NCBI GenBank assembly: GCA_002423385.1
Contig: DIVV01000044.1
Location: forward strand, 1 to 46,275
Reading direction: 5' to 3'
Source of the DNA: a bacterium UBP16_UBA6123
GTDB lineage: Bacteria; Muiribacteriota; UBA9980
DNA length: 46,275 nucleotides
The notes under the pieces are model-generated. The model saw only the letters and a list, made by a program, of their open reading frames with translations, made no database searches and was not told the DNA's origin. Below are positions 15,020 to 38,585 of the stretch, piece after piece (position 1 is the stretch's first letter; the number at the start of each line of letters is the position of its first letter). The position numbers were made by a program, and so were the translations under genes.

Positions 15020-15090
15020 TACCCCTCCCTCTTTCGGCAAATTACCTGACGCTTTATCGCTGGTTTGTCGATAGCTTTTTCTGTCGTGGC

Positions 15091-15190
15091 TTTAATTTCT
15101 TTTTCTTTCTCTTTTTTACTTTTACTCTTTCTTTTTTGTTTCTTTATTGCTTTCTTGCCTTTTACTCATTTTTCTGCCAGCTTGCTTGTT
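15091..15190 (+). repeat. Polypyrimidine (about 85% C/T) tract on the + strand
   Basis: tttaatttctttttctttctcttttttacttttactctttcttttttgtttctttattgctttcttgccttttactcatttttctgcc was read directly from the sequence. Confidence 0.8.
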
Positions 15191-15191
15191 T

Positions 15192-15218
15192 GCATTTGCG
15201 TGCGGCGCACGCAAATGC
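15192..15218. repeat. Perfect 27-nt palindrome (13-bp arms, 1-nt centre): gcatttgcgtgcg-g-cgcacgcaaatgc
   Basis: Read directly; the motif is GC-rich within AT-rich surrounding DNA. Confidence 0.8.
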
Positions 15219-15493
15219 GCAGCGATAATGGCACTACCGTAACTATGCCTTGCGGCTCGCGGGAAAAACTAATGTAAATCGGTTTTGATAATTGCACCGT
15301 TAAAAATTATCGCAAAAATATTTAATATCGTAAAAGATAAAATTAAGTTTTGTCGAGGGCTTTTAAAATGGCGACTAATTAATTTTGTTTATCATTAACA
15401 AGGTTTATAATGCTTTTGTATAATAAAAGTTGTTATTTTTTAATGCCTTATCGTGAGCATCAATATTAAGTTCCGGCAGTGCGTAAATAGAAC

Positions 15494-15520
15494 GCCTTCG
15501 CGCGCGCCGCGCGCGAAGGC
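15494..15520. repeat. Perfect 27-nt palindrome (13-bp arms, 1-nt centre) with an alternating CG core: gccttcgcgcgcg-c-cgcgcgcgaaggc
   Basis: Read directly; its architecture matches the palindrome at 15192-15218. Confidence 0.8.
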
Positions 15521-15559
15521 AAAACTAACAAAAGACGTGAAAAAGGTTTATGGCATGAC

Positions 15560-15590
15560 AGAAAGAGAAGAAAGAGAAGAAAGAGAAAAG
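15560..15590 (+). repeat. Pure-purine run containing three tandem copies of GAAAGAGAA
   Basis: The sequence is a-gaaagagaa-gaaagagaa-gaaagagaa-aag, read directly. Confidence 0.8.
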
Positions 15591-15695
15591 CAAGGACTTT
15601 GTTTATGAGCTATTAAAAAACTTCGAAGCCGGCAGGAAATGCCGCTTGAAATAAAAAGGCTATGATAATAGACTTTTTATATTCCGGGAGAGATT

Positions 15696-15757
15696 GGGGG
15701 GCTATGGGGGGCAAGAGAGGGTCTTCGACCCTTTCTTCCCCCCCGTCCCGTTCCCGC
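15696..15757. repeat. Imperfect G/A-rich hairpin related to the one at 14977-15019 (GGGGGG..GGGGGGCAAGAGAGGGTC-ttc-GACCCTTTCTTCCCCCCC...)
   Basis: The core stem gagagggtc/gaccctttc has one G-T wobble and is extended by a G6/C7 pairing with a bulge. It shares the core agggtY...RaccctttcYYccc with hairpin A. Confidence 0.7.
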
Positions 15758-15789
15758 GTTGAAAGTATGGTTACAAATATAAGTTTTTC

Positions 15790-15818
15790 TTGACTTATTA
15801 TATATATTTTTATATACT
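15790..15818 (+). promoter_or_regulatory. Putative sigma70 promoter for the aminotransferase gene (TTGACT -17- TATACT)
   Basis: The sequence is cTTGACTtattatatatatttttaTATACTtaag, which would give a 5' UTR of about 80 nt. Confidence 0.4.
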
Positions 15819-15906
15819 TAAGACAAAAAAATAAAATAGTAATTTTGTATTCAAGTATTTAAATTTTATTTATAATGCTTACATAGAGCAATTAGGGGTG
15901 TCAAAG

Positions 15907-22894: not shown

Positions 22895-24487
22895 ATGAAA
22901 AAGGCTGATAATAAAGGCTTTGATAACGACGAACTTTATAATGACGGGGCGCGGGAAGACGATTTAAAAGATATTCCGAGCGGCGACGGCGAAGACGATA
23001 CGGAGTGCGAAGGCGGCGGCTATATGATAAGCGGCGGCATCAGGCGCTACGAAACCGCGGGTGAAGCCGGCGAAGAAATCGAAGAACGTGAAACCGCCGC
23101 GAAGAAAATATTCGTTTACCTTTCCTACGCTATAATATTCGCCACTTTAGTAGCGTTATGCTTTTTTTTATACGAGGTTAAGGTAGTTCTTGACGATCCG
23201 TGCGTTCCGAATAACGTTTTTTTTCTTAACGAAAATTTAGGCGGCACTAATTATAAAAATTTAGATCGCGTCGTGTCGGCCATAGCTGATAAAATTGGCC
23301 ACCGTCCTATATATTTGAGTGCCGCCGGAAATAATTTTATGATTTTGCCGGCTAAAGACATCGATTTTAAAATAAATACCGGCCTGATTTGTGATCAGGC
23401 TTTAAAAGTCGGCAATCAGGGCAATTTATTTCAGCGCGTTAAATATAAAATCCGTTTAAAAACGGGTCGTATGAAGTTGAATTTAACCTGCCGTTATTAT
23501 TTCAATCGGACAAAACTGGAGAATTTATCTTCGATTATTGCCGAAAAATTGAATAAGGCCCCGAAAAGCGCCACTATCGTGGAATCTGAAAGTGGATATA
23601 AAAAAATTGAAAGAGATTCGCCCGGCGTTCGTATTTCACACGAAGAAATATACCGGCAGTTAAAAAATGAAATATCGCGCCTTTCTTCAGCGAATTTTGC
23701 AGTGGCGGCTATAGAATACGAACGGATAAAGCCGCCGGTAACGCTTGAAGATAAATTAAACCAGCTTAATTCTAGCGATTTGCTCTCGTCTTTTGAGGCG
23801 GATTATATAAGCGATAATCCGAGCATAAAAAATAACGTAGAAAATGCGGCGCGAATGATAGACGGACTTATTTTAAAACCGCTCGAAGTTTTTTCATTCA
23901 ATAAGTTCATGGGTGCGGTTAAATATAAAAACGAGCGCGACGCGGTTATTTTTAATTCTAACAGGCTCGGTTTTTTCCCCGATGTTTCAGGCGGCGCGGG
24001 CGTGTTCGCTTCCGCTCTTTATAACGCTGTATTGTTTACCCGCGTTGAAATTCTTGAAAGATACAATCACGCCAATTACGACAAAAATTATGCGTATTGT
24101 CCGCCCGGCCGCGACGCGCAGGTTATTTTCGGCTCAAAAGACCTTAAATTTATGTTAAGCAAGAATTCGCAGCCGCTTATTATTTTAAGCCAGGCCGATA
24201 ACAACAGGCTACGCGTGTTGATATACGGTCGGAAGCAGTCCGGCGAAACGATCCAGATCGAAACCGGGGAGGTTAATATAAGCGAGCCGCCGGTTAAGAA
24301 GTTAAAAGATTATTCAATGAAAAAAGGCGAAGAAAAGGTTGAAAATGCAGGACTGCCCGGCTATGAAATAAAAACGGTCAAAATAGTCAGCGTCAACGGC
24401 GAACAGAATTACCGCAGCGTTATATCCACCGATATTTACGCGTCGGTTCCGAAGATAATTAGAATCGGCGATTCCGCTGAAGAATGA
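22895..24487 (+). CDS. Membrane-anchored VanW-domain protein
   Basis: An acidic N-terminus and one TM helix (IFVYLSYAIIFATLVALCFFLY) precede a VanW-like core (GGAGVFASALYNAVLFTRVEILERYNHANY...GRDAQVIFGSKDLKFMLSKNSQPLIILS). Confidence 0.5.
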   Translation: MKKADNKGFDNDELYNDGAREDDLKDIPSGDGEDDTECEGGGYMISGGIRRYETAGEAGEEIEERETAAKKIFVYLSYAIIFATLVALCFFLYEVKVVLDDPCVPNNVFFLNENLGGTNYKNLDRVVSAIADKIGHRPIYLSAAGNNFMILPAKDIDFKINTGLICDQALKVGNQGNLFQRVKYKIRLKTGRMKLNLTCRYYFNRTKLENLSSIIAEKLNKAPKSATIVESESGYKKIERDSPGVRISHEEIYRQLKNEISRLSSANFAVAAIEYERIKPPVTLEDKLNQLNSSDLLSSFEADYISDNPSIKNNVENAARMIDGLILKPLEVFSFNKFMGAVKYKNERDAVIFNSNRLGFFPDVSGGAGVFASALYNAVLFTRVEILERYNHANYDKNYAYCPPGRDAQVIFGSKDLKFMLSKNSQPLIILSQADNNRLRVLIYGRKQSGETIQIETGEVNISEPPVKKLKDYSMKKGEEKVENAGLPGYEIKTVKIVSVNGEQNYRSVISTDIYASVPKIIRIGDSAEE

Positions 24488-24596
24488 TCGATTAAATTAA
24501 AGTTTTTTATATGCTTTTTTAAACCGATTTTGCGCTTTTAAAATATAATGTGTAAAATATAATGTTGACTTTTAAGGGGTGTTTATAGTAGAATAA

Positions 24597-25931
24597 ATGA
24601 AATTTTATCAAGGATGTAAAATGAGACCGGGATGGCCGCATTTACCTATAATTTTAATATTTACGGTTTTTTCAGCTTTAGCGTTTTTTGAAATAAATAC
24701 GGTATGCGCCGAAGAGTACAGATGCCAGAAAACCATTGGCGTTTACGGCACTAAAGATGCCGGTTTGTATTATCCGTGCGGAGTCGCCCTCGATTCCGTC
24801 GGTAATATTTATGTGACCGACTGGCGTAATAAAAAAGTGAGCAAGTTCAATCAGGAAGGCAAGTTTATATTGAACTTCGAGTCGAAAGCTAAAGTTTACA
24901 TGAAGTTGAAAGGCCCCGCCGGAATAGCTATCGATTCCAACGACAATATTTTCGTCGTCGATCAGTACGTCGCTAAAGTGTTTAAATATAATACAAAAGG
25001 CGAATATATCGGTTCTTTCGGTAATTACGGCAGCGCGAGCGGCAAGTTTTTAAATCCGCGCGGCGTGGCCTGCGACGGCAATAATAATATATACGTCGCG
25101 GACTATGATAATTTCAGAGTGCAAAAATTCAGCCCGAAGGGCGAATATATCGGCGAATTTAAATATATGGGCCTGGATACCAGAAAGCTGGCTAAGCCGC
25201 GCGGCGTGGCCTGTGACGCTAATAACAATATTTACGTGGTTTACAGCGATATTAATAAAGTGGCCGTATTTACGCAGGAGGCTAAAATGATCGTCGATTA
25301 CGGCGAAGAAGGCCAACTGCCGGGGCAATTTATGAACCCGCGCTATGTAGCCTGCGATAATATCGGTAATATTTATGTAACTTGCTATAAAAATCACAGG
25401 GTGCAAAAGTTTTCTAAAGATATGAAATTATTGACTTCATTCGGCGAATTCGGTAAAAAATATGAGAATTTTAGAAATCCCGAAGGAATATGCGTGGACG
25501 TATCGGGCAACGTGTTTGTGGCGGACGCTCTTAACGACAGGGTTTCAAAGTGGGAGCCGGAAGAATATATAAAGCATTTAAACTGGGCGGCGTTATTTGA
25601 AAAAAAGGCAATGCTCGCCGATGCGATAAAAGAATATAACGATATTTTAAAAATACGGCCGCAGGATGCTAAAATTACTGCGGCGATAATAGAGTTAAGC
25701 CTTAAAGCCGCAAAAAAATGTCAGCTCGATAAAGATATCGAAGGCGCCAAAAAATATTACGCGGAAGTGCTTAAATTAAATTCACTAAATGAAGTGGCCA
25801 TAAGGGAAATCAAAGATCTTCAGGAAGGCGGCCGCGAGAAGAAAGAAGAGAAGAAGCAAAATTTCGTGATAGGGCTTTTAGTCGTTCTCGCTGTTTTGAT
25901 CTCGATGATTATGACGTTTAAAAACGTGTGA
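24597..25931 (+). CDS. NHL-repeat beta-propeller protein with a TPR-like segment and a C-terminal TM anchor
   Basis: Six NHL-type repeats are present (PCGVALDSVGNIYVTDWRNKKVSKF; PAGIAIDSNDNIFVVDQYVAKVFKY; PRGVACDGNNNIYVADYDNFRVQKF and further copies). The likely start is the ATG at 24621 (MRPGWPHLPIILIFTVFSALA signal/TM). The C-terminal hydrophobic tail is FVIGLLVVLAVLISMIMTF. Confidence 0.7.
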   Translation: MKFYQGCKMRPGWPHLPIILIFTVFSALAFFEINTVCAEEYRCQKTIGVYGTKDAGLYYPCGVALDSVGNIYVTDWRNKKVSKFNQEGKFILNFESKAKVYMKLKGPAGIAIDSNDNIFVVDQYVAKVFKYNTKGEYIGSFGNYGSASGKFLNPRGVACDGNNNIYVADYDNFRVQKFSPKGEYIGEFKYMGLDTRKLAKPRGVACDANNNIYVVYSDINKVAVFTQEAKMIVDYGEEGQLPGQFMNPRYVACDNIGNIYVTCYKNHRVQKFSKDMKLLTSFGEFGKKYENFRNPEGICVDVSGNVFVADALNDRVSKWEPEEYIKHLNWAALFEKKAMLADAIKEYNDILKIRPQDAKITAAIIELSLKAAKKCQLDKDIEGAKKYYAEVLKLNSLNEVAIREIKDLQEGGREKKEEKKQNFVIGLLVVLAVLISMIMTFKNV

Positions 25932-25964: not shown

Positions 25965-26444
25965 ATGGTATTGTTTGAAAATCAGCTCTATATAGAGTTT
26001 CCATCAAAAAAAGATTTTATAGATTTTGTGTCGAATAAGGTTATTTCATCTATTAACACTATCGCGCAGGAAGTTCATTCACAAAATATAAACGACGAAA
26101 CTTCCATGCCTCAAGATTTGAATATTTTCGGCTTTGGCATGAATCTTTCCATAGATGAAGCTCTTAAAAATGCTATAGTGCATGGAAACCGGGTCGATCC
26201 CCTGAAAAAAGTCGCGCTATCCTACTATATCAATTCGGAAAAACTCGAAATAATAGTCAGGGACGAAGGGATCGGTTTCGATCATAAAAATTATAAGGCA
26301 AATCAGGAAATTGACGCGGAAGCCGGGCGCGGGCTTCTTTTAATCAATAACTTTATGGATGAAATAAAATTTAATGAATCTGGAAATGAAATTACAATGA
26401 TTAAATATTTAGGAAAAAGTAAAACGGCAAGGGAGGACTTTTAA
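25965..26444 (+). CDS. Anti-sigma regulatory factor / Ser-Thr protein kinase of the partner-switching family (RsbW/SpoIIAB-like HATPase)
   Basis: The HATPase_c N-box and G-boxes are present (ALKNAIVHGN...IIVRDEGIGFD...GRGLLLINNFMDEIKF). The product is 159 aa. Confidence 0.75.
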   Translation: MVLFENQLYIEFPSKKDFIDFVSNKVISSINTIAQEVHSQNINDETSMPQDLNIFGFGMNLSIDEALKNAIVHGNRVDPLKKVALSYYINSEKLEIIVRDEGIGFDHKNYKANQEIDAEAGRGLLLINNFMDEIKFNESGNEITMIKYLGKSKTAREDF

Positions 26445-26785
26445 TGGAAATAACCACCAAAGACTGTAACGATGTGAAGGTGGTCAGCTTTAAAGGCCGA
26501 ATTGTCTATGATACCGAAGAAATAGTTAAGCGTGAAACTGAAAAATTAGTGAAAGGCACGGTTAAAAACTTAGTTTTTAACTTCGGCGAGCTGACTTATA
26601 TTAACTCGTCAGGACTCGGGCTTTTGATTAACGTTTTAAAGCAGATTCGCGCGGCGAAAGGCGACGTAAAACTTTCCAATCTCCGACCAGAATTAATGGA
26701 ATTGTTTAAAATCACCAGTTTGAATTCGGTTTTCGACATATCGCCCGATGAAGAAACGGCTGTTAATAAATTCGTTAAAAAATAG
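26444..26785 (+). CDS. STAS-domain anti-sigma-factor antagonist (RsbV/SpoIIAA-like)
   Basis: The STAS fold carries the conserved phosphorylatable Ser context (LTYINSSGLGLL). Its start overlaps the kinase stop by 1 nt. Confidence 0.8.
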   Translation: MEITTKDCNDVKVVSFKGRIVYDTEEIVKRETEKLVKGTVKNLVFNFGELTYINSSGLGLLINVLKQIRAAKGDVKLSNLRPELMELFKITSLNSVFDISPDEETAVNKFVKK

Positions 26786-26883
26786 CTTTTTGATTCATAA
26801 TTTATTGTATCCGGCCCGGCAATGTTATTAAATTGCCGGCGCTGTTTTCTGTTATATTTATGCTGAAATGAGGATAATTATTA

Positions 26884-29347: not shown

Positions 29348-32300
29348 ATGGAAAATAATCAAATAAATCTTGATGGCAGAACGGATACGGCGAAAAAATT
29401 TTTAAACGATTCGCTTTCTTTATTGATTCAGGCTGATATTTCGTCAGCCGATTTTTCGACTATTATTACCCGGATTAAATTAAATATCGACGATGCGCTC
29501 AAACTTTCTTCGTCTTCTTCCGAAACCGACCTGCTGTCGGTTTCTTTAAATTCGGCCAGTTCGATATTGTTTGAGACCGATCCAGAAATAATTAAAGTGT
29601 TAGTGGAGCTGCTTGAAAGCTCGTTAGCCAAAGCTATCGAGCATTTCGACGCTCTCGAAATCGCGGCGGACGGGCCGTCGCAGGCTGAACCTGCTAAAAC
29701 TGAAACGGTGAGAGATAAAAGTGCCGAGCGCGAAATATTGCTCACTTTTATTGACGAATGCGGCGAGCATATACAGGCGGCTGAAGAATCGCTTTTAAAA
29801 CTCGAAGAAGACCCTTCACGCCTGGATTCGCTTAACGACGTATTTCGTTCATTCCATACGATAAAAGGTTCGGCGCATTTTTTAAATTTAAAAAACATAT
29901 CTGAATTTGCGCATGAGGCCGAGAATTTTTTGAGTGAAATACGCGAAGGTAAAGTTAAATTCAGTAAAAGCAATCTCGAACTGGCTTTTCGCGCGATCGA
30001 CGAGTTAAAAATGCTTGTGGCCGGAGTTAAAGCGGATGGCAGTGATTCTAAGAGTCCCGATTATCGAAGGCTGATGACGGCCTTTAAAAAAGGCGGAGCG
30101 CATGAGGCGCCGGCAAGCGTCGAAGAAGTCGCGGCGGTTCCTCTTACAGCCGAAGGCCTGGCTAAAAAAGTAATAAGCGACCTGGAACATATATCTAATG
30201 CCTTGATGCAGGCTGAAACCGACGATCTTAAAACTTTTATAAATCTTAAAAATTCTCTGAACAGCGTTGCGAAGGTCTGCACCGACGAAGTAGCCGTTTC
30301 GGTAATTGAAGCGGCTGGTTTTCAGCTCGATGAAATTATTACAAGCACGGCAGATGACTGCTTTCAAATAGTCAGCGTTGCAAGCGCGATGATTGAATCC
30401 TGCATAACCCATCTTGAAAGCCGAATTTCCGGCCAAAAATCTAAAGCAGCCGCGCCGGCGGTCAGGACCGCTGTTTCCAGAGCAGTCAAACCGGCCGCGG
30501 AAAAAATCGAAAAAACCGTCATTGAACCCGCGGCGGAGGTTGTTATAGCCGAATCCCTGCCGGCAATCGAAGTCAGCTTCGAATTCGAACCCGATAGTAT
30601 CGATCGTGAAATGTTTTTGACTTTTATCGATGAATGCCTCGAACATATCCAGGCGTCTGAAGAAGCGCTTTTAAACTTAGAAAACAATCTCGAAGATATA
30701 ACTTCCATAAACACGGTTTTCAGGGCGTTTCATACAGTAAAAGGCTCTTCGTCGTTTCTGGGTCTCGCGGGAGTTACGGAGCTGGCACATCACGCCGAAT
30801 CGCTTTTAGTTAAAATACGCGATAAAGAAATACCATATAATAAAAGCTTCGCCGATATCTGTCTCAGATCGGTCGATATATTAAAAACGCTTATCGTTTC
30901 ACTTAAAATCGGCGATTATAAAAAGCCCGATAATTACGACGATCTGTTAAGGCTTTTAATGAGCCCTGAATTAAAAAAAGGAATCGTGCCGCAGTTTGCG
31001 GCAGCGTCGAAAGTTAAGCCGGGTTCTTCGGCTGCCACGGCGTCTCCAGCCGCCGTCGTTTCTTTAAAATCGCCGGTTGAATCATTTGCGGTCGCGCCGG
31101 CCGTTAAAATAACCGAAACCGCTCCGCGGTTAAATGTTCCGGCCGCCGCCGCGCAAGTTAAATCCGCCGTGGAGGCGCCTGAAGCAAAAAAAACGCCCGT
31201 TTCTACAAACGATGAAGAAGAATCAACGGTCCGCGTTAAAATTGCGCGAATCGATAAGCTTATCGATATGGTCGGAGAGCTGGTTATTTCACATTCGATG
31301 GTCGCGCAGGATGAGGCCATGGTAAACGGAGCCAACCATATACTGGCAAAAAAAGTAATGCAGTCAGGTAAAATTATTCGCGAATTGCAGGATTTAAGCA
31401 TGACTATGCGTATGATACCCTTCCGCGCAACTTTTCAAAAAATGGCCCGCGTGGTGCGCGATATTTCCGGTAAAAACGGCAAAGAAATAGATTTTATAAC
31501 TTCCGGTAAAGAAACGGAAGTTGACCGTAATCTTGTAGATATAATTAACGACGCGCTTATGCACATGGTAAGAAACTCCGTAGATCACGGTATCGAGCCG
31601 CCCGAAGTAAGAAAGCAGGCGGGCAAGCCTGAAAAAGGCCGCGTAGTGCTTTCGGCGTTTCATTCAGGCGGCAATGTCGTAATCGAAATAAAAGACGACG
31701 GCAAGGGGCTGGATCGTCCCAAAATCGTTAAAAAAGCTATTGAAAAGGGCCTGATTAAATCCGATGAAACTATGAGCGATTCAGAAGTTTTCAATCTCGT
31801 CTTTCTTCCCGGATTTTCTACGGCGGATCAGATTACCGATATATCCGGCCGCGGCGTCGGTATGGACGTGGTTAAAACATCCATAGAATCCTTGCGCGGG
31901 CGTATCGATATAACCTCGATGCCCGGTAACGGCTGTTGCTTTTCGATCAAAGTGCCGCTAACTCTCGCCGTTACCGATGGTATGCTTATAAAGGTGGGAT
32001 CGCAGCGTTATATAATACCTACCGCCAATATTTATCTTACTTTCAGGCCTAAAATCGAAGATATATTTACAATGGCCGGCCGCGGCGAAATGGTAATGCT
32101 TCACCAGAAGATGATACCGGTTTTCAGGCTTCATAAAATTTTCAACATATCCAATGCGATTGAAAATCCATGGGATTCTTTATTCGTAGTTATCGACGAC
32201 GGCGATAATAAGCACTGCGCGGTACTGGTAGACGAACTTCTCGGCCAGCAGCAGATAGTGGCTAAACCGCTCGGTAACGCGCTCGGTAAAATCGAAGGCA

Positions 32301-32413
32301 TTTCCGGCGGCGCGATACTCGGCGACGGCAAGGTGGGCCTTATAATAGACACTAAAGAGATAGTCAGCATTGCCCGCCAGATGGCCAACGTTCAGATCAA
32401 GCAGATCGCGTGA
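29348..32413 (+). CDS. cheA: Chemotaxis histidine kinase CheA with two tandem Hpt (P1) domains
   Basis: Hpt-1 is ILLTFIDECGEHIQAAEE...FRSFHTIKGSAHFL and Hpt-2 is EMFLTFIDECLEHIQASEE...FRAFHTVKGSSSFL. A dimerisation domain (VRVKIARIDKLIDMVGELVI), a HATPase domain (DALMHMVRNSVDHGIE...GRGVGMDVV) and a C-terminal CheW-like domain follow. Confidence 0.92.
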   Translation: MENNQINLDGRTDTAKKFLNDSLSLLIQADISSADFSTIITRIKLNIDDALKLSSSSSETDLLSVSLNSASSILFETDPEIIKVLVELLESSLAKAIEHFDALEIAADGPSQAEPAKTETVRDKSAEREILLTFIDECGEHIQAAEESLLKLEEDPSRLDSLNDVFRSFHTIKGSAHFLNLKNISEFAHEAENFLSEIREGKVKFSKSNLELAFRAIDELKMLVAGVKADGSDSKSPDYRRLMTAFKKGGAHEAPASVEEVAAVPLTAEGLAKKVISDLEHISNALMQAETDDLKTFINLKNSLNSVAKVCTDEVAVSVIEAAGFQLDEIITSTADDCFQIVSVASAMIESCITHLESRISGQKSKAAAPAVRTAVSRAVKPAAEKIEKTVIEPAAEVVIAESLPAIEVSFEFEPDSIDREMFLTFIDECLEHIQASEEALLNLENNLEDITSINTVFRAFHTVKGSSSFLGLAGVTELAHHAESLLVKIRDKEIPYNKSFADICLRSVDILKTLIVSLKIGDYKKPDNYDDLLRLLMSPELKKGIVPQFAAASKVKPGSSAATASPAAVVSLKSPVESFAVAPAVKITETAPRLNVPAAAAQVKSAVEAPEAKKTPVSTNDEEESTVRVKIARIDKLIDMVGELVISHSMVAQDEAMVNGANHILAKKVMQSGKIIRELQDLSMTMRMIPFRATFQKMARVVRDISGKNGKEIDFITSGKETEVDRNLVDIINDALMHMVRNSVDHGIEPPEVRKQAGKPEKGRVVLSAFHSGGNVVIEIKDDGKGLDRPKIVKKAIEKGLIKSDETMSDSEVFNLVFLPGFSTADQITDISGRGVGMDVVKTSIESLRGRIDITSMPGNGCCFSIKVPLTLAVTDGMLIKVGSQRYIIPTANIYLTFRPKIEDIFTMAGRGEMVMLHQKMIPVFRLHKIFNISNAIENPWDSLFVVIDDGDNKHCAVLVDELLGQQQIVAKPLGNALGKIEGISGGAILGDGKVGLIIDTKEIVSIARQMANVQIKQIA

Positions 32414-32463
32414 AAAATAAAAATAAAAATAAATAAATAAAGTAATTTTGTACACTGGGAAGG

Positions 32464-33000
32464 ATGAAATCAAAGATGAGCGAAGAAGTCAACAGAAATT
32501 CCGGATTCGGTTCCATCGCCGCGGCCGTGAAAAAAATCGAAGGCGGCAAGTTTCTTACTTTCTATCTGGGCAGTGAAGAATATGGAATTCAGATACTTAA
32601 AGTTCAGGAAATAATCGGTATAATGGAAATCACGCCCGTGCCGCGCACTCCCGATTTTATTAAAGGGGTTATCAATTTGCGCGGCCATATAATTCCTATA
32701 ATTTATCTAAGGTCTAAATTCGGAATGCCTCAGATTGAAAATACCGAACAAACTTGTATAGTCGTAGTCAAAACCAGAAATCTTATAATGGGCCTGATAG
32801 TCGATAGAGTATGCGAAGTTTCCGATATTCCTACTAATGATATCGATGAAGCGCCGTCATTCGGCACTTTCGTCAACACCGAATATATACTTGGAATAGG
32901 AAAATTCGCGAGTAAAGTTAAATTGCTGTTAGACATAGATAAAGTTATTACCGCCCAGGAATATGACGGTATAGCGAAAATAGTCCAGAGCGCCGCTTAA
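32464..33000 (+). CDS. cheW: Chemotaxis coupling protein CheW
   Basis: The CheW fold is recognisable (FLTFYLGSEEYGIQILKVQEIIGIMEITPVPRTPDFIKGVINLRGHIIPIIYLR). Confidence 0.9.
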   Translation: MKSKMSEEVNRNSGFGSIAAAVKKIEGGKFLTFYLGSEEYGIQILKVQEIIGIMEITPVPRTPDFIKGVINLRGHIIPIIYLRSKFGMPQIENTEQTCIVVVKTRNLIMGLIVDRVCEVSDIPTNDIDEAPSFGTFVNTEYILGIGKFASKVKLLLDIDKVITAQEYDGIAKIVQSAA

Positions 33001-33066
33001 GCTATATTAACGATTAAACTAACAAACAATTCATTGATAAATTATTAATTTATAGTCAACAAAATT

Positions 33067-36000
33067 ATGGAGGTCGTAATGGAGTCACTGAAACGCAGGT
33101 TAATGCTTACGGGTGCATTTATTGTTTTTTTTCCGATGTTAATAACCATAGGCGCGCTTTATATTACAGGCGCTCTTAAAACGCCCGTATTGCTGGCGGT
33201 AGCAGGCGGCGCTATAGTCGGTCTCGCCGCGGCGCTTCTTGCCGTGGAAAAAATCATGGCTTCGGCCGTTAAACTCAATTCCGCCGTAGAAAAAATTTCG
33301 AAAGGCGAAACCGTTAAAATTGTTGGAGCCGACAGGACCGATTATTTTTATTTGATAATTGAAAACTTAAATCAAATGATTAATAATTGTGATAGTTTTA
33401 AAAAAGATATCGGAACGGTTATGGACAGCCTGATTAACGGCGATTGTACCTTTAATGTTAATTTAAGCCAGTATGACGGAAATTACCGCGTGGCGCTCGA
33501 AAAAATAATCGAATCATGCAAAAAAGTCAATGAACCGCTCAGTGTTATGAACGGCGTTATCGATAAAGTCAGCAAGGGCGATATTACAAGCGAACGAATT
33601 AACGTAGAGACCAGAGGCGCCATGACCTCGCTTAAAAATAACACCAACTCGCTTCTTAACACGATAGATAATCTTTTAAATGAAGTTAAGGTAGTTTGTA
33701 TCGCCACTATTTTCGAAGGCAAACTCGATAAGCGCGCTAACGTATCTCTGTTTAGCGGTCGCTGGGCGCGTTTGGCGACGGGCATAAACGATATAGTAAA
33801 CACATTCGTTAAACCGCTCACGCTATCCTCCGATTATATAACCTCGATAAGCTGCGGCAATATTCCGGCTAAAATTACGGAAGAATACAAGGGCGATTTT
33901 AATATACTCAAAAATTCGTTCAATCTCTGCATAGGCAATCTTCAATCGATGATAAAAGAAGTCAACGACCTTACGCATGCGGCGGCGGACGGCAATCTCA
34001 AAAAAAGAGGCAATGCCGATAAATATGAAGGCGCTTATCGTGAAATCATATCCGGCATCAATCAAACTCTGGATTCCGTCATTAATCCCGTTAGTAAAAT
34101 GAATGAATATTTAGTGCAGCTCAGCAAAGGCGAAATCGCCGGCAAAATCGAAGATGATTGCAAAGGCGATTTCTGCGAGCTCAAAGACAGCCTCAATAAA
34201 CTTATAACGACGCTCGATAACCTGCTTAATGAAGTCAAGGTAGTTTGTATCGCTACTATTTTCGAAGGTCACATAGATAAGCGCGCTAACGTATCGCTTT
34301 TTTCCGGCCGCTGGGCTAAGCTGGCCTCGGGTATAAACGATCTTATCAACGCTTTCGCCAACCCTCTGAAGATGTCGGCGAGCTATATCACCCAAATCGG
34401 CAGCGGCACGATACCGCCCGTGATCACTGAAGAATATAAAGGCGATTTCAATTTAATCAAAAATTCGTTCAATAGTTGCATAGGCAATTTGAATAACTTA
34501 ACGGTCGAAGTCGAAGCGCTCACGCACGCGGCTACCGACGGCAAGCTGAAAGTGCGCGGTAATGCCGATAAATTCGAAGGCGTTTACAGGGAAATAATAG
34601 TGGAAATAAACAGCACGCTCGATGCTATCGTTAATCCGCTTAACGTTGCCGCCGATTATGTGGCTAAAATAAGCAGAGGCGAAGTTTCTGAGAAAATCAC
34701 AGCCGAGTACAAGGGCGATTTCAACGATATCAAACTGAATCTTAACAGTCTCATAAATACGGTAGATACTATGCTCGGCGAAATAAAAACTATATGTATC
34801 GCGGTTATATTTGAAGGCAAACTCGATAAACGCACCAGCGTCTCACAATTCAGCGGCCGCTGGGCTAAACTCGCTTCGGGTATAAACGATATAGTAAATT
34901 CTTTAGTCAATCCCTTAAAGGTATCTTCGGATTATCTGCTTAAAATAAGCCATGGTGAAATACCTTCTAAAATTACCGAAGAATATAAAGGCGATTTTAA
35001 CGAAATCAAAAGCAGTATCAATACCTGTCTGGATACTTTGACTTCGCTTATTATAACCGACGGCGGCGCGGCGCTTCAGGCGGCGGCCGATAAAGACCTT
35101 ACCGCACGGGTTAAAAAGACCTATAGCGGTTTATACGATAAAATGAAGGAAAATATTAATTCGCTGATTGAAAATCTGGAGGAAATGTTTAAAAATATAG
35201 GCGCGAACGCTGAAAACGTTTCATCTTCGTCGAGCCAGATCAGTAAAGGCGCGCAGTCTCTCGCGCAGGGCGCCTCCGAACAGGCGAGCGCTCTGGAAGA
35301 AGTATCGAGCAGTCTTCATCAGATGAATTCGATGGCCAGACAGAATGCCGCCAATGCCAAGGAAGGTCAGAATCTTACTACGAGCGCCCGCAGCAGCACC
35401 GAACGCGGCGTTGACAGCATGAAAAAAATGTCGGTGGCTATAAACCAGATCAAAGATTCGTCGAATAACACGGCTAAGATATTAAAAACCATTGACGAAA
35501 TAGCTTTTCAAACCAATCTTCTCGCTTTGAACGCGGCCGTCGAAGCGGCGCGCGCGGGTGATGCGGGCAAGGGCTTCGCGGTCGTCGCCGATGAAGTGAG
35601 AAATCTGGCTATGAGAAGCGCGGAGGCCGCTAAAAATACGGCGCGTATGATAGAAGAATCGGTTAAATACGCTAATAACGGCGTTGGTATAAACGAGGAA
35701 GTAATGAAAAACCTCGATGAAATCAACGGCCAGGTAAAAAAAGTAAATGAATTCATGTCCGAAATTTCCGCCGCTTCAGAGCAGCAGAGCGAAGGCATTA
35801 ATCAAATTAACACCGCGGTCGCGCAGATGAATCAGGTCACGCAGCAGAACGCCGCTTATTCCGAAGAATCGGCGAGCGCTTCACAGGAGCTTACCTATCA
35901 GGCCGATCAGATGAAAAATATGATCTTGCAGTTTAAACTCAGCAGCGTTAAAACGAGGGTAATGAATGGAGGCTTCGATTATAACTCGGCTCCCGGGTAT

Positions 36001-36171
36001 AACAGGCGGCCGATAATTCAGCCTATAGCGCCGCCGGCCGCGCATGCGCCTCACATGAAAAAAGATTTTGGCGAATATGAAAATTATCAGGCGTCTTCAA
36101 AAAGTATAGAGGCCGACCCAAAAAAAGTGATACCCTTCGAAGACGATACTAATGTGCTGCATGAGTTTTAA
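33067..36171 (+). CDS. Methyl-accepting chemotaxis protein with two N-terminal TM helices, no periplasmic domain and a cytoplasmic poly-HAMP-like repeat array
   Basis: A canonical MCP signalling domain is present ([45 protein letters not shown]). Six HAMP-like units of about 90 aa come in two alternating flavours (..[32 protein letters not shown].. and ..[34 protein letters not shown]..). The likely start is the ATG at 33079, which follows GGAGG. Confidence 0.9.
33640..35030 (+). repeat. Three tandem copies of a ~549-bp intragenic repeat inside the MCP gene
   Basis: Near-identical stretches occur at 33679-33735, 34228-34284 and, more diverged, 34811-34834 (aatgaagtYaaggtagtttgtatcgcYactattttcgaagg...gataagcgcgctaacgtatc). 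The period is 549 bp, or 183 aa. Confidence 0.85.
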
Positions 36172-36206
36172 CAGGATGAATATCCCGGCTTCAGGGCGGG
36201 AATAAA

Positions 36207-37046
36207 ATGGAATATATTTCGGCTAAATTAAGTGATTATGAATTCGACAGAATATCCGGTCTGGTATATTCACTTTGTGGAATAAGCCTCGGCAGCGGAA
36301 AGAAAGAATTAGTGACGGCCCGCCTGGCCAAAAGGCTTAACGAGCTCAAACTTCAGAGTTATGACGCTTATCTTAAGTATTTAAGCGGCGATGAGAGCGG
36401 TTACGAGCTGCTACAGCTTATAGACGTAATAACTACCAATGTAACGAGTTTTTTTCGGGAAATGCACCATTTTGATTATATCAGGGAGCGTATTCTGCCG
36501 GAATATAGAATTAAATCGGAAAAGATCCGCGTCTGGAGCGCCGGCTGCTCTTCGGGTGAAGAACCTTACTCGATGGCGGTTCTGCTTTTTGAAGAAATCG
36601 GAAATCTTATGCTTCGCGACGTGAAAATATTGGCTACGGATATATCCACTAACATTCTGACGAAGGCCAAAGAAGGCGTCTATGATAAGCAGCTCGTGAA
36701 CGGCGTTCCAAAGATGCTGTTGAACAAATATTTCGACGCTTTCACGGACAGGGACGAATACGGCAGAACTTTATATAATTTTAAAGTTAAATCCGACATA
36801 AGGAGCGTCGTGCGCTTCGCGCGTCTTAATTTAATGGAAGATTGGCCTATGAAGGGGCCGTTTAAAATTATATTCTGCCGTAACGTTATGATTTATTTCG
36901 ATAAAAAAACTCAGGAAAAATTAGTCGGCAAGTATCACGCCCTGCTCGAAACCGGCGGACATTTATTCATCGGTCATTCTGAAAATTTATCGTCTATTTC
37001 GCATTCGTTTAAATATGTTCAGCCGGGGGTGTATCTGAAATGTTAA
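36207..37046 (+). CDS. cheR: Chemotaxis protein methyltransferase CheR
   Basis: The SAM-binding motif VWSAGCSSGEEPYSMAV is present and the product has CheR-typical length and architecture. Confidence 0.9.
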   Translation: MEYISAKLSDYEFDRISGLVYSLCGISLGSGKKELVTARLAKRLNELKLQSYDAYLKYLSGDESGYELLQLIDVITTNVTSFFREMHHFDYIRERILPEYRIKSEKIRVWSAGCSSGEEPYSMAVLLFEEIGNLMLRDVKILATDISTNILTKAKEGVYDKQLVNGVPKMLLNKYFDAFTDRDEYGRTLYNFKVKSDIRSVVRFARLNLMEDWPMKGPFKIIFCRNVMIYFDKKTQEKLVGKYHALLETGGHLFIGHSENLSSISHSFKYVQPGVYLKC

Positions 37047-37513
37047 AAGTCGTAGGCATGGCGGATATGAAAATATCGAACGCCGACAGCGATATAATCG
37101 TCACTTACGCGCTTGGAAGCTGCATCGGGCTTACCGTTTACGATCCTTTAACCAGGGTCGGCGGCATGATGCATGCGATGATGCCTGATTCAAAAATAGA
37201 CCCGCCGCGTTCGAAAGAAAATCCCTTTATTTTCGTGGATACCGGATTTCCTCTGCTCATCGACGAATGCCTTAAATACGGGGCTAAAAAGGAACGCCTT
37301 CAAATAAAAGCGGCAGGCTGTTCAGCGCTTAAAACGGGTCATTTTTTTAAGATCGGGTATAAAAATTTTAACTGCTTGAACGATCTTTTAAGTTCTTATA
37401 ATTTATCGCTTCATGCTTACGACGTAGGCGGCGCGGCATCGCGAACTATGAAACTGGCGATTTCAGACGGCGAAGTCCTCGTTGAAGATAACCGGAAAAA
37501 AATAAAACTATAA
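37040..37513 (+). CDS. cheD: Chemoreceptor glutamine deamidase CheD
   Basis: The CheD signature ALGSCIGLTVYDP...GGMMHAMMP is present. The gene overlaps the 3' end of cheR. Confidence 0.85.
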   Translation: MLKVVGMADMKISNADSDIIVTYALGSCIGLTVYDPLTRVGGMMHAMMPDSKIDPPRSKENPFIFVDTGFPLLIDECLKYGAKKERLQIKAAGCSALKTGHFFKIGYKNFNCLNDLLSSYNLSLHAYDVGGAASRTMKLAISDGEVLVEDNRKKIKL

Positions 37514-37529
37514 ATTCGGGGGAATAAAA

Positions 37530-38585
37530 TTGATTAAAGTATTGATAGTAGATGATTCCGCGGTAGTCAGAAAAGTTTTGAGCGAAGAACTTTCTAAGTT
37601 CAGTGATATTTCCGTTATAGGAACGGCTCCCGACGCTTACGTGGCGCGCGAAAAAATAGTTAAATTAATGCCGGACGTGATCACCCTCGATATCGAAATG
37701 CCGCGCATGGACGGTCTTACTTTTTTAGAAAAATTAATGACGCATTTTCCGATACCGGTAGTTATAGTAAGTTCGCTCGCTCCGAAAACCAGCGATAACG
37801 CGATTAAAGCCATGATGCTCGGCGCCGTCGAGATCGTCAATAAAACGGGCTCGCAGTATTCGCTGCCGGACGTCGCCGGAAGTCTCGTGCGCGCCATTCG
37901 CAACGCCGCCGGCGCTAAAGTATTCGCGCGCGGCGTACAATCCGGCGCGGCGGCGGCAAGGGAGGTTAAACCTCAATTTACGGCTATTTCGGAAAACGAT
38001 ATTAAACTTCAAACCACTCATAAAATTATAGCCATAGGGGCTTCTACCGGCGGCACGCAGGCTACCGAAGCGGTTTTAAAAGCTCTTCCGTTGAGCTCTC
38101 CCGCTATTATTATCGTTCAGCACATGCCGGAAGGTTTTACCAATTTTTACGCTAGAAGGCTTAACGAGGTATGCGCTATCGAAGTGCGCGAAGCTAAAGA
38201 CGACGATTATCTCGTGCCGGGTATGGCGCTTCTCGCGCCTGGCGGAAAGCATATGGTGCTTCATAAAAGCGGCGCGCGTTATTTCGTCAAACTTAAAGAA
38301 GGGCCCGCGGTTCATCATCAGAAACCGAGCGTCGATGTGCTATTTCAATCAGTCGCGAGGTCGGCGGGTAAAAACGCGGTCGGCGTAATACTTACCGGGA
38401 TGGGTTCCGACGGTGCGGCCGGTCTTCTTGAAATGAAAAAAAACGGCGCCCATACCATCGCTCAGGATGAAAAAACCTGCGTGGTTTTCGGAATGCCCAA
38501 AGAAGCCATTAACGCAGGCGCGGTTGACGAAACTTTGTCCATCGACGATATCGCCCGCGCGATGCTCACGGCTTCGGCTAAATAA
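37530..38585 (+). CDS. cheB: Chemotaxis response regulator protein-glutamate methylesterase CheB
   Basis: A receiver domain (KVLIVDDSAVVR...DVITLDIEMPRMDG) is joined to a methylesterase domain (IIAIGASTGGTQA...HMPEGFT...GMGSDGA). The gene has a TTG start. Confidence 0.93.
   Translation: MIKVLIVDDSAVVRKVLSEELSKFSDISVIGTAPDAYVAREKIVKLMPDVITLDIEMPRMDGLTFLEKLMTHFPIPVVIVSSLAPKTSDNAIKAMMLGAVEIVNKTGSQYSLPDVAGSLVRAIRNAAGAKVFARGVQSGAAAAREVKPQFTAISENDIKLQTTHKIIAIGASTGGTQATEAVLKALPLSSPAIIIVQHMPEGFTNFYARRLNEVCAIEVREAKDDDYLVPGMALLAPGGKHMVLHKSGARYFVKLKEGPAVHHQKPSVDVLFQSVARSAGKNAVGVILTGMGSDGAAGLLEMKKNGAHTIAQDEKTCVVFGMPKEAINAGAVDETLSIDDIARAMLTASAK

What the first reader, a model, noticed from the sequence alone, without database searches (positions are those of the whole stretch)
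25965..26785. Orphan partner-switching pair (RsbW-like kinase then STAS antagonist) with no sigma factor, directly upstream of lepA
Canonical modules are ordered antagonist-kinase-sigma (rsbV-rsbW-sigB; spoIIAA-AB-AC). Here the order is inverted (HATPase kinase first, STAS second, with a 1-nt overlap) and the next gene is lepA, not a sigma factor. Such orphan pairs are known to control non-sigma outputs in other bacteria, but the target here is unknown. Neighbours that could plausibly be a target are the membrane NHL/TPR propeller protein and the VanW protein upstream, or the chemosensory cluster downstream.
Basis: partly seen in the sequence, partly recalled or inferred. Interest (0 to 1): 0.55.

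Follow-up and report, generated by a model that had tools for sequence, protein, structure and literature searches.

The report
Kinase–STAS switch in envelope operon
The two genes are a real, intact RsbW-like serine kinase and its STAS-domain substrate. Their constant partner in two candidate phyla is the upstream membrane NHL-propeller gene, not lepA or the chemotaxis genes, so this is an ordinary orphan partner switch with a newly defined, envelope-linked context.

Summary
Window 25965-26444 encodes a 159-aa HATPase_c_2 (RsbW/SpoIIAB-like) kinase with all catalytic motifs. Window 26444-26785 encodes a 113-aa STAS protein whose Ser55 aligns with the SpoIIAA phospho-serine. The genes overlap by 1 nt, and no sigma factor or PP2C lies within about 20 kb.

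Two of the "odd" features are not odd:
- Kinase-first order occurs in about half of the related pairs I fetched.
- None of about 145 related loci has an adjacent group-3 sigma.

lepA adjacency looks incidental. A terminator-like hairpin separates STAS from lepA. More distant relatives have murJ or a pilin-like gene there instead. The che cluster is next to the pair only in the closest relatives.

The invariant feature is the cassette NHL-propeller membrane protein, then kinase, then STAS. NHL is upstream in 21/21 and STAS downstream in 22/22 non-redundant relatives from Walliibacteriota and Muiribacteriota. The cassette usually follows der-plsY-gpsA-vanW.

NHL and VanW are almost entirely extracytoplasmic, so they are poor direct binding targets. 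My best reading is an envelope-linked phospho-switch whose phosphatase and output are encoded elsewhere. A non-sigma output is slightly favoured over a distant sigma factor.

Side finding: Omnitrophota-like MAGs carry kinase-STAS-mlaEFD-CHASE2/PP2C cassettes.

Verdict: new member of a known kind, of modest interest.

The parts
24565..24594 (+). Sigma-70-type promoter-like element (TTGACT, 18 nt, TAGAAT) directly upstream of the NHL gene; probable start of the NHL-kinase-STAS transcription unit
   Evidence: Consensus scan scored 10/12. The roughly 50-nt block containing it is invariant in 5 relatives while the rest of the vanW-NHL spacer has diverged. The -10 element abuts the first ATG, so the true NHL start codon is probably a little downstream (for example Met9).
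24597..25931 (+). Membrane-anchored NHL beta-propeller / TPR-like protein (444 aa); the invariant upstream partner gene of the kinase-STAS pair
   Evidence: Pfam NHL, E=1.5e-31. The AF2 model has pLDDT 88: N-terminal signal/TM helix 15-34, six-bladed propeller 42-320, five helices 323-409, and a C-terminal helix containing a TM segment, leaving a cytoplasmic tail of only 3 aa. Foldseek matches NHL propellers, including the PknD extracellular sensor 1rwi. It lies immediately upstream of the kinase in 21/21 relatives.
25965..26444 (+). RsbW/SpoIIAB-like GHKL serine protein kinase (159 aa). N-box E65..N69..H73-G74-N75 (26157-26189); G1 D100-x-G-x-G104 (26262-26276); G2 G121-R-G123 (26325-26333); clade-specific ~24-aa insertion with invariant G56-F57-G58 (about 26082-26138)
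   Evidence: Pfam and NCBIfam hits. The motifs are invariant in 19 homologues. The best PDB sequence hits are RsbW 6m36 and SpoIIAB 1til/1l0o. The AF2 model has pLDDT 81, and its top Foldseek hits are SpoIIAB and RsbW at E about 2e-9.
26444..26785 (+). Single-domain STAS protein (113 aa), RsbV/SpoIIAA-like; predicted phospho-acceptor Ser55 (codon 26606-26608) in the motif INSSGLG
   Evidence: Pfam STAS and TIGR00377 hits. Ser55 is invariant. It aligns with the residue that is Ser in 1th8_B and Ala in 1tid_B, which I take to be the phospho-acceptor. The protein is 86-98% identical across Walliibacteriota relatives.
26812..26855 (+). Terminator-like stem-loop (26812-26844) followed by a U-rich tract, in the STAS-lepA spacer
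   Evidence: It is the best terminator-like site in the 10.5 kb scanned. Folding gives dG -19.9 kcal/mol, z=-4.4, and 0/200 shuffles fold as well. Hairpin-plus-U-run elements of different sequence occupy the same spacer in L001, L010, L012, L014, L015 and L003.
22895..24487 (+). VanW / PG_binding_4 / G5 membrane protein (530 aa); frequent but not invariant upstream neighbour of the cassette
   Evidence: Pfam hits. It is present upstream of NHL in most relatives but absent in L017 and L101. Its N-terminal cytoplasmic acidic tail exists only in Walliibacteriota.

Best explanation
The pair is a functional phospho-switch of the partner-switching type. In Walliibacteriota it forms the distal two genes of a three-gene operon: NHL-propeller membrane protein, kinase, STAS.

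Proposed mechanism:
- The kinase uses ATP to phosphorylate STAS on Ser55.
- A SpoIIE-family phosphatase encoded elsewhere removes the phosphate.
- The phosphorylation state of STAS decides which partner it occupies.

The cassette always sits among cell-envelope biogenesis genes (der-plsY-gpsA-vanW upstream, and murJ downstream in the more distant relatives). I therefore take the switch to be wired to envelope or membrane homeostasis. I slightly favour a model in which unphosphorylated STAS is itself the output and binds a cytoplasmic face of a membrane machine. That would resemble MlaB on MlaF, SypA, or the STAS domain of All4160, rather than the kinase sequestering a sigma factor. lepA and the che cluster are bystanders.

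Status of each step:
- Shown here: gene integrity, catalytic and acceptor residues, fold, purifying selection, operon signals, and the conserved NHL-kinase-STAS synteny.
- Inferred by homology: phosphotransfer to Ser55.
- Inferred from context only: the envelope link and a non-sigma output.
For: Kinase and acceptor:
- Kinase motifs are invariant in 19 homologues.
- The nearest solved relatives by sequence and fold are RsbW and SpoIIAB.
- STAS Ser55 is invariant and aligns with the SpoIIAA acceptor position.

Selection:
- STAS dN is at or below lepA dN. STAS is also more conserved than the kinase (dN 0.023 against 0.097 versus L001). That fits a STAS protein with several partners.

Synteny:
- In 23 non-redundant kinases at 97-44% identity, NHL is upstream in 21/21 and STAS downstream in 22/22.
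- Spacers range from a 23-nt overlap to 35 nt.
- The Muiribacteriota locus L019 has der-plsY-gpsA-vanW-NHL-kinase-STAS packed with overlaps.
- murJ follows STAS at 32 nt in L017/L104, and follows after one gene in L019/L091.

Operon signals:
- A conserved sigma-70-like promoter lies before NHL.
- A terminator-like hairpin lies after STAS.

No sigma or PP2C was found within the flanks of any in-clade locus, with a working PP2C positive control.

Precedents for non-sigma outputs:
- Kinase-first kinase-STAS pairs lie directly upstream of mlaE-mlaF-mlaD with a CHASE2-SpoIIE phosphatase in L029, L039, L145, L147 and L148.
- The in-clade locus L017 has mlaEFD 4.6 kb downstream of STAS on the same strand.
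- Published non-sigma partner switches include SypE/SypA, BtrUWV, RbaVW and HmpUVW (PMC8256260) and HenR/Alr3423/All4160.
Against: - No target has been identified.
- No mla, PP2C or sigma gene lies near the pair in the window.
- NHL and VanW expose almost nothing to the cytoplasm. The NHL tail is 3 aa, and the VanW N-terminal tail is absent in Muiribacteriota. How an envelope signal would reach the kinase is therefore unexplained.
- The Mla-linked kinases are not the sister group of this clade in a neighbour-joining tree.
- The window STAS is no closer to Mla-linked STAS proteins (25-32% identity) than to other STAS proteins.
- The NCBIfam MlaB score is far below its cutoff (17.8 bits against 90).
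- The conserved neighbourhood could partly reflect general collinearity of a housekeeping region rather than functional coupling.
- All solved close relatives are anti-sigma factors.
Confidence: 0.42

Rival explanations
1. Classical anti-sigma / anti-anti-sigma module with dispersed components. The kinase sequesters a group-3 (SigB/SigF/FliA-like) sigma factor encoded elsewhere in the genome. Unphosphorylated STAS releases that sigma factor, and a distant PP2C provides the input. Any envelope link would then be at the input or in the regulon.
For: - The best sequence and fold matches are RsbW, SpoIIAB and UsfX bound to their sigma factors or antagonists.
- The STAS protein passes the TIGR00377 anti-sigma-factor-antagonist cutoff.
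- Dispersed Rsb genes are known, for example in Chlamydia (PMC11619594, abstract listed).
Against: - No sigma-70-family gene lies in the window or in the flanks of any of 23 relatives.
- None of about 145 related loci has an adjacent group-3 sigma. The sigma queries had no positive hit to prove their sensitivity.
- The operon has a sigma-70-type promoter, not a SigB/F-type one.
- Scores are far below the RsbW and SpoIIAB equivalog cutoffs (54 against 145, and 44 against 135).
Confidence: 0.35
2. The pair is the output or modulator of the downstream chemosensory cluster (cheA-cheW-mcp-cheR-cheD-cheB), as in Che-linked partner switches.
For: - Outgroup locus L110 has REC-SpoIIE, kinase, STAS, CheA-REC, MCP and CheW in one string. 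L112 and L136 are similar.
- The window che cluster lies 2.5 kb downstream and lacks a cheY.
Against: - The che cluster accompanies the pair only in relatives with at least 84% kinase identity. It is absent in L003/L015/L016 and in all Muiribacteriota loci.
- lepA and the ACT-domain gene intervene, and a terminator-like hairpin follows STAS.
- No REC-PP2C gene is present in the window.
Confidence: 0.05
3. The pair regulates the adjacent downstream gene (lepA) directly, in the manner of CapK/CapS, where a kinase-first pair controls the next operon through a DNA-binding STAS protein.
For: The kinase-first order upstream of another gene resembles capK-capS followed by its operon (PMC13373217).
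Against: - CapK is HTH-STAS-GHKL and CapS is STAS-wHTH. The window proteins are single-domain with no HTH.
- Neither protein hits PADLOC.
- lepA adjacency is lost in relatives below 68% identity.
- A terminator-like hairpin lies in the spacer.
Confidence: 0.03
4. The pair is a decaying or non-catalytic remnant with no signalling role.
For: None was found beyond the absence of nearby partner genes.
Against: All catalytic motifs and the acceptor serine are invariant. dN is very low. The cassette is conserved across two candidate phyla.
Confidence: 0.02

Closest known systems
RsbW-RsbV (sigma-B) and SpoIIAB-SpoIIAA (sigma-F) of Bacillus
   Same: - Same GHKL kinase fold, with N-box, G1 and G2 motifs.
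- Same STAS fold, with the acceptor serine in the D/N-S-S-G-L-G motif.
- These are the closest solved structures by sequence (E=8e-9 to 7e-12) and by fold (E about 2e-9).
   Different: - Kinase-first gene order.
- No sigma factor or PP2C in the operon or within about 20 kb.
- Scores are far below the NCBIfam equivalog cutoffs.
- There is a ~24-aa insertion with an invariant GFG between helix 1 and the N-box helix, and a shorter ATP lid.
- The pair is co-transcribed with an extracytoplasmic NHL-propeller protein.
Non-sigma ('non-canonical') partner switches: SypE/SypA, BtrU/W/V, RbaV/W, HmpU/V/W, HenR/Alr3423/All4160
   Same: These use a kinase plus a phosphorylatable STAS protein with no cognate sigma factor. 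Their outputs are on envelope polysaccharide, secretion or motility (PMC8256260; bioRxiv 10.64898/2026.04.08.717354). BtrV and BtrW are adjacent genes (BP2226/BP2227; PMC7498569).
   Different: Those loci carry their PP2C or their regulated genes nearby, or have a genetically defined output. Here neither the phosphatase nor the output is identified, and the constant neighbour is an NHL-propeller membrane protein.
MlaB (STAS subunit of the MlaFEDB lipid transporter), and the kinase-STAS-mlaEFD-CHASE2/SpoIIE cassettes seen here in Omnitrophota-like MAGs
   Same: - A single-domain STAS protein with a Ser/Thr at the equivalent position. MlaB Thr52 lies at the MlaF interface, and whether it is phosphorylated is an open question (PMC7367683).
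- The cassettes share the kinase-first order.
- The context is membrane-lipid related, comparable to plsY-gpsA here. The in-clade locus L017 has mlaEFD 4.6 kb downstream of STAS.
   Different: - No mla genes are in the window.
- The NCBIfam MlaB score is 17.8 bits against a cutoff of 90.
- The Mla-linked kinases and STAS proteins are not specifically related to the window clade.
PknD acting on Rv0516c in Mycobacterium tuberculosis
   Same: An extracytoplasmic six-bladed NHL propeller is linked to a Ser/Thr kinase that phosphorylates a STAS (anti-anti-sigma homologue) protein (PMC1847690). The PknD sensor 1rwi is a Foldseek match of the window NHL model (E=1.5e-16).
   Different: - PknD is a single polypeptide with a Hanks-type kinase.
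- Here the propeller is a separate protein with essentially no cytoplasmic part, and the kinase is a soluble GHKL type.
- Coupling between the propeller and the kinase is not demonstrated.
CapK-CapS
   Same: A kinase-first GHKL kinase plus STAS substrate with a conserved serine, placed upstream of another transcription unit.
   Different: CapK and CapS are multi-domain and carry HTH/wHTH domains, and they sit upstream of immune operons. The window proteins are single-domain, have no PADLOC hit, and lie in a housekeeping context.

Membership tests
Partner-switching module (RsbW/RsbV-SpoIIAB/SpoIIAA type) | GHKL serine kinase with an intact N-box (E..N..HG), G1 (DxGxG) and G2 (GxG) | tested here: met
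   E65, N69, H73, G74, D100, G102, G104, G121 and G123 are invariant in 19 homologues. Pfam HATPase_c_2, E=5e-19. The fold matches SpoIIAB and RsbW.
Partner-switching module (RsbW/RsbV-SpoIIAB/SpoIIAA type) | Single-domain STAS protein with a phosphorylatable Ser/Thr at the start of helix 2 | tested here: met
   Ser55 in INSSGLG is invariant. It aligns with the Ser of 1th8_B, which is Ala in 1tid_B. TIGR00377 scores 63.8 bits against a cutoff of 53.45.
Partner-switching module (RsbW/RsbV-SpoIIAB/SpoIIAA type) | Cognate PP2C (SpoIIE-family) phosphatase | tested here: inconclusive
   None was found in the 46-kb window or in the flanks of 23 in-clade loci. The RsbU query does find PP2C genes next to outgroup pairs. 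The rest of the genome could not be searched.
Partner-switching module (RsbW/RsbV-SpoIIAB/SpoIIAA type) | Target sigma factor, classically encoded in the same operon | tested here: not met
   There is no Sigma70_r2/r4 protein in the window or in the flanks of any relative. Whether a cognate sigma factor exists elsewhere in the genome is not testable with these tools.
Partner-switching module (RsbW/RsbV-SpoIIAB/SpoIIAA type) | Physical kinase-STAS complex and phosphotransfer | not testable with these tools
   Needs biochemistry or a multimer structure prediction. Only single chains could be modelled.
NCBIfam equivalogs RsbW (NF003144, TIGR01924), SpoIIAB (TIGR01925) and SpoIIAA (TIGR02886) | Whole-protein score at or above the curated cutoff | tested here: not met
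   Scores against cutoffs: 54.1 vs 145; 45.9 vs 155; 44.2 vs 135; 53.0 vs 114.75.
MlaB (STAS subunit of MlaFEDB) | Gene lies in or next to an mlaFED operon, and the protein matches the MlaB model | tested here: not met
   No MlaE/MlaF/MlaD homologue was found in the window or in the Walliibacteriota loci. The mlaB_1 model scores 17.8 bits against a cutoff of 90.
CapK/CapS | Domain architecture HTH-STAS-GHKL kinase plus STAS-wHTH repressor, upstream of an immune operon | tested here: not met
   Both window proteins are single-domain. They have no PADLOC hit. The family architecture is taken from PMC13373217.
Stressosome (RsbR/RsbS/RsbT) | Two STAS proteins, one carrying an N-terminal sensor domain, together with an RsbT-type kinase | tested here: not met
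   Only one STAS gene is present (113 aa, STAS domain only), and there is no RsbR-like gene in the window.

The most novel reading that the evidence does not exclude
The NHL propeller, the kinase and STAS form a split trans-envelope signalling device. It would be a GHKL-kinase analogue of PknD acting on Rv0516c. The extracytoplasmic propeller would report envelope state. The phosphorylation state of STAS would then directly gate a membrane lipid or peptidoglycan machine (an Mla-type transporter, MurJ or PlsY) instead of a sigma factor. That would give a phosphorylation-controlled MlaB-like regulator, a possibility raised but not tested for E. coli MlaB.
Probability: 0.2. Interest if true: 0.6.

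Novelty: new member of a known kind. Interest (0 to 1): 0.3.

Why it matters
Taken alone the pair is ordinary. Orphan RsbW/RsbV-like pairs are very common outside Firmicutes, and their outputs are mostly unknown.

What this analysis adds:
- The conserved functional unit is NHL-kinase-STAS inside an envelope-biogenesis neighbourhood in two uncultured candidate phyla.
- lepA and the che cluster are removed as candidate partners.
- The search for a target is narrowed to cytoplasmic faces of envelope machines or a distant sigma factor.

The side observation may be more useful than the window pair itself. Related kinase-first pairs are embedded in mlaEFD operons together with a CHASE2-PP2C phosphatase. 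That offers natural systems in which to test whether MlaB-type STAS subunits are controlled by phosphorylation.

Tried and rejected
- lepA as functional partner: rejected on synteny and the terminator-like hairpin.
- Che cluster as partner: rejected on synteny.
- NHL or VanW as direct cytoplasmic binding targets: unlikely, because neither has a conserved cytoplasmic segment.
- CapK/CapS-type or other defence-associated module: rejected on domain architecture and PADLOC.
- MlaB identity for the window STAS: not supported by score, tree or local gene content.
- Looking for the same NHL-TPR protein elsewhere: Atribacterota homologues (35% identity, 85% coverage) lie next to a PlsC-type acyltransferase but lack the kinase-STAS pair. 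The pair is therefore an addition specific to Walliibacteriota and Muiribacteriota.
- Rfam scan of the window: only tRNA-Trp was found.
- A genome-wide search for sigma factors, PP2C phosphatases or further STAS proteins in the source genome was not possible. No tool returns whole MAGs, and the collection scans have no taxon filter.
- dS was saturated in most comparisons, so dN/dS could be computed only for some pairs.
Full report
**1. Observation**

Window 25965..26444 (+) encodes 159 aa and 26444..26785 (+) encodes 113 aa. They overlap by one base (TAATG), and each has a strong Shine-Dalgarno sequence.

The first protein is a Pfam HATPase_c_2 protein (E=5e-19). The second is a STAS protein (E=1.9e-17) and passes the NCBIfam anti-sigma-factor-antagonist superfamily model TIGR00377. 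lepA follows at 26884.

I found no sigma-70-family protein and no SpoIIE/PP2C phosphatase anywhere in the 46-kb window. This rests on two searches:
- Pfam scans of nearly all ORFs of at least 140 aa.
- phmmer of SigB, SigF, FliA and RsbU queries against all ORFs of at least 50 aa.

Pfam confirmed SigB, SigF and RsbU as genuine Sigma70_r2/r3/r4 or SpoIIE sequences; FliA was not checked. The RsbU query found PP2C genes in many outgroup loci, so it worked as a positive control. The sigma queries gave almost no hits anywhere, so their sensitivity is unproven.

**2. Are the proteins intact?**

Kinase:
- In an alignment of 19 homologues at 97-39% identity, the N-box (E65, N69, H73, G74, N75), the G1 box (D100, G102, G104) and the G2 box (G121, R122, G123) are invariant.
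- The closest solved relatives by sequence are RsbW (6m36, E=8e-9) and SpoIIAB (1til/1l0o, E=5e-8).
- An AlphaFold2 model (pLDDT 80.9) has the expected Bergerat fold. Its best Foldseek matches in the PDB are SpoIIAB and RsbW at E about 2e-9.

STAS:
- The closest solved relatives are SpoIIAA (1th8_B, E=7e-12) and RsbV.
- Ser55 lies in the motif INSSGLG. It aligns with the residue that is Ser in 1th8_B and Ala in 1tid_B, which I take to be the phospho-acceptor. It is invariant in relatives.

Selection:
- Non-synonymous divergence of STAS against three relatives is 0.023, 0.112 and 0.073. That is at or below lepA in the same genomes (0.041, 0.126, 0.125).
- The kinase values are 0.097, 0.168 and 0.146.

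Differences from the Bacillus proteins:
- Scores are far below the RsbW, SpoIIAB and SpoIIAA equivalog cutoffs.
- The full-length subfamily is small. Only 9 of 1.84 billion 50%-identity cluster representatives score E<=1e-30 against its profile, and about 7 of those are full-length.

**3. Source organism**

The named relatives are Candidatus Wallbacteria MAGs (phylum Walliibacteriota), at up to 86% kinase identity with full synteny, for example GWC2_49_35. More distant relatives at 44-47% are Candidatus Muiribacteriota.

**4. What is conserved around the pair**

I fetched loci through exact-protein look-ups, one scan of species-representative genomes and one scan of metagenome contigs. I labelled their ORFs with phmmer. 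This gave 23 non-redundant in-clade kinases at 97-44% identity.

- The NHL-repeat membrane protein gene lies immediately upstream in 21 of the 21 loci where upstream sequence exists.
- The STAS gene lies immediately downstream in 22 of 22.
- Kinase-NHL spacing ranges from a 23-nt overlap to about 35 nt.
- VanW/G5 precedes NHL in most loci, but not in L017 or L101.

The gene after STAS varies with distance from the window:

| Gene after STAS | Where |
|---|---|
| lepA | 11 loci, all with at least 68% kinase identity |
| murJ (32-nt gap; Pfam MurJ E=1e-120) | L017, L104 |
| pilin-like N_methyl gene, usually convergent | 5 Muiribacteriota-type loci |

In L019/L102 and L091, murJ comes next after the pilin-like gene. 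In L019/L102, lepA and the ACT-domain gene follow murJ.

In L019, the genes der-plsY-gpsA-vanW-NHL-kinase-STAS are packed with overlaps. The likely ancestral arrangement is der-plsY-gpsA-vanW-NHL-kinase-STAS-(pilin-like)-murJ-lepA-ACT. On that reading, lepA became the direct neighbour in Walliibacteriota through loss or relocation of the intervening genes.

The che cluster accompanies the pair only in relatives with at least 84% kinase identity. It is absent from L003, L015 and L016.

**5. Operon signals in the window**

- A near-consensus sigma-70-type promoter (TTGACT, 18 nt, TAGAAT; 24565-24594) lies directly upstream of the NHL gene. It sits in a ~50-nt block that is invariant in five relatives while the surrounding spacer has diverged.
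- The STAS-lepA spacer holds the best terminator-like site of the 10.5 kb scanned. It is a stem-loop at 26812-26844 followed by a U-rich tract (dG -19.9 kcal/mol, z=-4.4, 0/200 shuffles fold as well).
- Hairpin-plus-U-run elements of different sequence occupy the same spacer in six relatives.

In Walliibacteriota the transcription unit is therefore most likely NHL-kinase-STAS, with lepA transcribed separately.

**6. The NHL protein and VanW**

The AlphaFold2 model of the NHL protein (pLDDT 88.4) shows four parts:
- an N-terminal signal or TM helix;
- a six-bladed propeller (42-320);
- five TPR-like helices (323-409);
- a long C-terminal helix containing a TM segment.

After that TM segment the window protein has only three residues (KNV). 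Other lineages have a basic tail of variable length and sequence. The propeller and stalk are therefore extracytoplasmic.

VanW has a cytoplasmic acidic N-terminal extension only in Walliibacteriota. Muiribacteriota orthologues have just a signal anchor.

Neither protein offers a conserved cytoplasmic surface. They are conserved co-transcribed partners, but improbable direct binding targets of the soluble kinase/STAS pair.

The propeller resembles NHL domains generally, including the extracellular sensor of M. tuberculosis PknD (1rwi, E=1.5e-16). PknD phosphorylates a STAS protein, Rv0516c (PMC1847690). This is an analogy, not a demonstrated mechanism.

Homologous NHL-TPR membrane proteins in Atribacterota lie next to a PlsC-type acyltransferase without any kinase-STAS pair.

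**7. How unusual are the "odd" features?**

- Gene order: among outgroup loci, kinase-first and STAS-first orders are about equally frequent, roughly 13 against 14.
- Missing sigma: none of the roughly 145 loci has an adjacent group-3 sigma factor.
- Precedent: orphan or non-sigma partner switches are an established category. Examples are SypE/SypA, BtrU/W/V, RbaV/W and HmpU/V/W (PMC8256260), HenR/Alr3423/All4160 and CapK/CapS.

The window pair is not a CapK/CapS system. It has no HTH domains and no PADLOC hit.

**8. A lead from outgroups**

In five loci (L029, a Candidatus Omnitrophota MAG; L039; L145; L147; L148), a kinase-first kinase-STAS pair is followed within 4-200 nt by mlaE, an mlaF-type ABC ATPase and mlaD. 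In four of the five, a membrane CHASE2-SpoIIE phosphatase lies 0.1-4 kb beyond mlaD; none is annotated in the 14.4 kb held for L148, whose flank ends 4.3 kb past mlaD. L146 has the pair with the phosphatase but no mla genes.

This looks like a phosphorylation-controlled MlaB-type STAS subunit. Kolich et al. state that whether MlaB is phospho-regulated at Thr52 is an open question (PMC7367683). No paper in the searchable library combines Mla terms with RsbW, SpoIIE or partner-switching terms.

For the window pair this is only an analogy:
- The Mla-linked kinases are not sister to the window clade in a neighbour-joining tree.
- The window STAS is equally distant (25-32% identity) from Mla-linked and other STAS proteins.
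- No mla genes are in the window.
- The in-clade locus L017 does carry mlaE-mlaF-mlaD 4.6 kb downstream of STAS on the same strand.

**9. Most likely mechanism**

- Shown: the pair is an intact, strongly conserved kinase/STAS couple, and it is co-located with an extracytoplasmic NHL protein in an envelope-biogenesis neighbourhood.
- Inferred from promoter and terminator signals: the three genes are co-transcribed.
- Inferred by homology: ATP-dependent phosphorylation of STAS Ser55, and reversal by a distant SpoIIE-family phosphatase.
- Inferred from context: the switch serves envelope or membrane homeostasis.

| Explanation | Probability |
|---|---|
| Unphosphorylated STAS is the output and acts on a non-sigma target | 0.42 |
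| Kinase is an anti-sigma factor for a distantly encoded sigma factor | 0.35 |
| Che-linked module | 0.05 |
| CapK/CapS-like regulator of lepA | 0.03 |
| Non-functional remnant | 0.02 |

The slight preference for STAS as the output rests on three points. The envelope context is constant. STAS is more conserved than the kinase. The Mla, Syp and All4160 systems provide precedents.

**10. Verdict**

This is a new member of a known kind, the orphan RsbW/RsbV-type partner switch. Its conserved unit is now defined as NHL-kinase-STAS, and two of the suggested partners (lepA and the che cluster) are removed. Interest is modest (0.3). The more novel reading, a split trans-envelope sensor gating a lipid or peptidoglycan machine, is not excluded (probability about 0.2).

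Noticed in passing
L029:6674-12103; L039:9896-17917; L145:7001-14356; L147:7001-14465; L148:7001-10139; L146:4615-9269: In Omnitrophota-like MAGs, a kinase-first RsbW-like kinase + STAS pair sits directly upstream of mlaE-mlaF-mlaD. Except in L148, a membrane CHASE2-SpoIIE (PP2C) phosphatase lies 0.1-4 kb beyond mlaD. L146 has the pair with the phosphatase but no mla genes. This looks like a phosphorylation-controlled MlaB-type subunit. Whether MlaB is phospho-regulated is stated as an open question in PMC7367683, and no paper in the searchable library links the two sets of terms.
   Followed up: partly
L090:52-2133; L092:5254-7336: Atribacterota encode a homologous NHL + TPR membrane protein (471 aa, 35% identity over 85% of the window protein). 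It lies next to a PlsC-type acyltransferase with no kinase-STAS pair. The NHL-TPR protein is thus syntenic with phospholipid-synthesis genes in several candidate phyla (plsY-gpsA in the window).
   Followed up: partly
L008:2920-3978(-); L019:10777-11835(-); L020:2688-3701(-); L101:7380-8144(-); L091:4375-5478(+): In Muiribacteriota-type loci the gene right after STAS is repeatedly a 250-370-aa protein with a type IV pilin N-methylation motif. It is usually convergent and overlaps the STAS 3' end by about 20 nt. No counterpart was seen next to the pair in the window.
   Followed up: no
L110:4928-12655: An outgroup metagenome locus has REC-SpoIIE phosphatase, RsbW-like kinase, STAS, CheA-REC hybrid, MCP and CheW in one string. 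This is a chemosensory pathway with a partner-switch module attached.
   Followed up: partly
window 29348-38585: The chemosensory cluster is cheA (1021 aa, two Hpt domains), cheW, an MCP with six HAMP_2 repeats (1034 aa), cheR, cheD and cheB. It has no cheY gene in the cluster.
   Followed up: no
window 13465-15897: A 469-aa ORF (13465-14874, TTG start) has no Pfam match. It is followed by about 1 kb (14875-15897) with no ORF of at least 90 aa and no Rfam hit.
   Followed up: no
window 10845-13200 (-): Two adjacent minus-strand genes in a housekeeping region encode an ankyrin-repeat protein (408 aa) and a Tim44-like-domain protein (338 aa). Both domain types are more typical of eukaryotes.
   Followed up: no
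window 24597-25931: The NHL protein gives a weak PADLOC hit to PD-T4-6 (E=1.7e-9). The matched stretch lies in the NHL repeats, so it is probably repeat-driven rather than a sign of a defence function.
   Followed up: no
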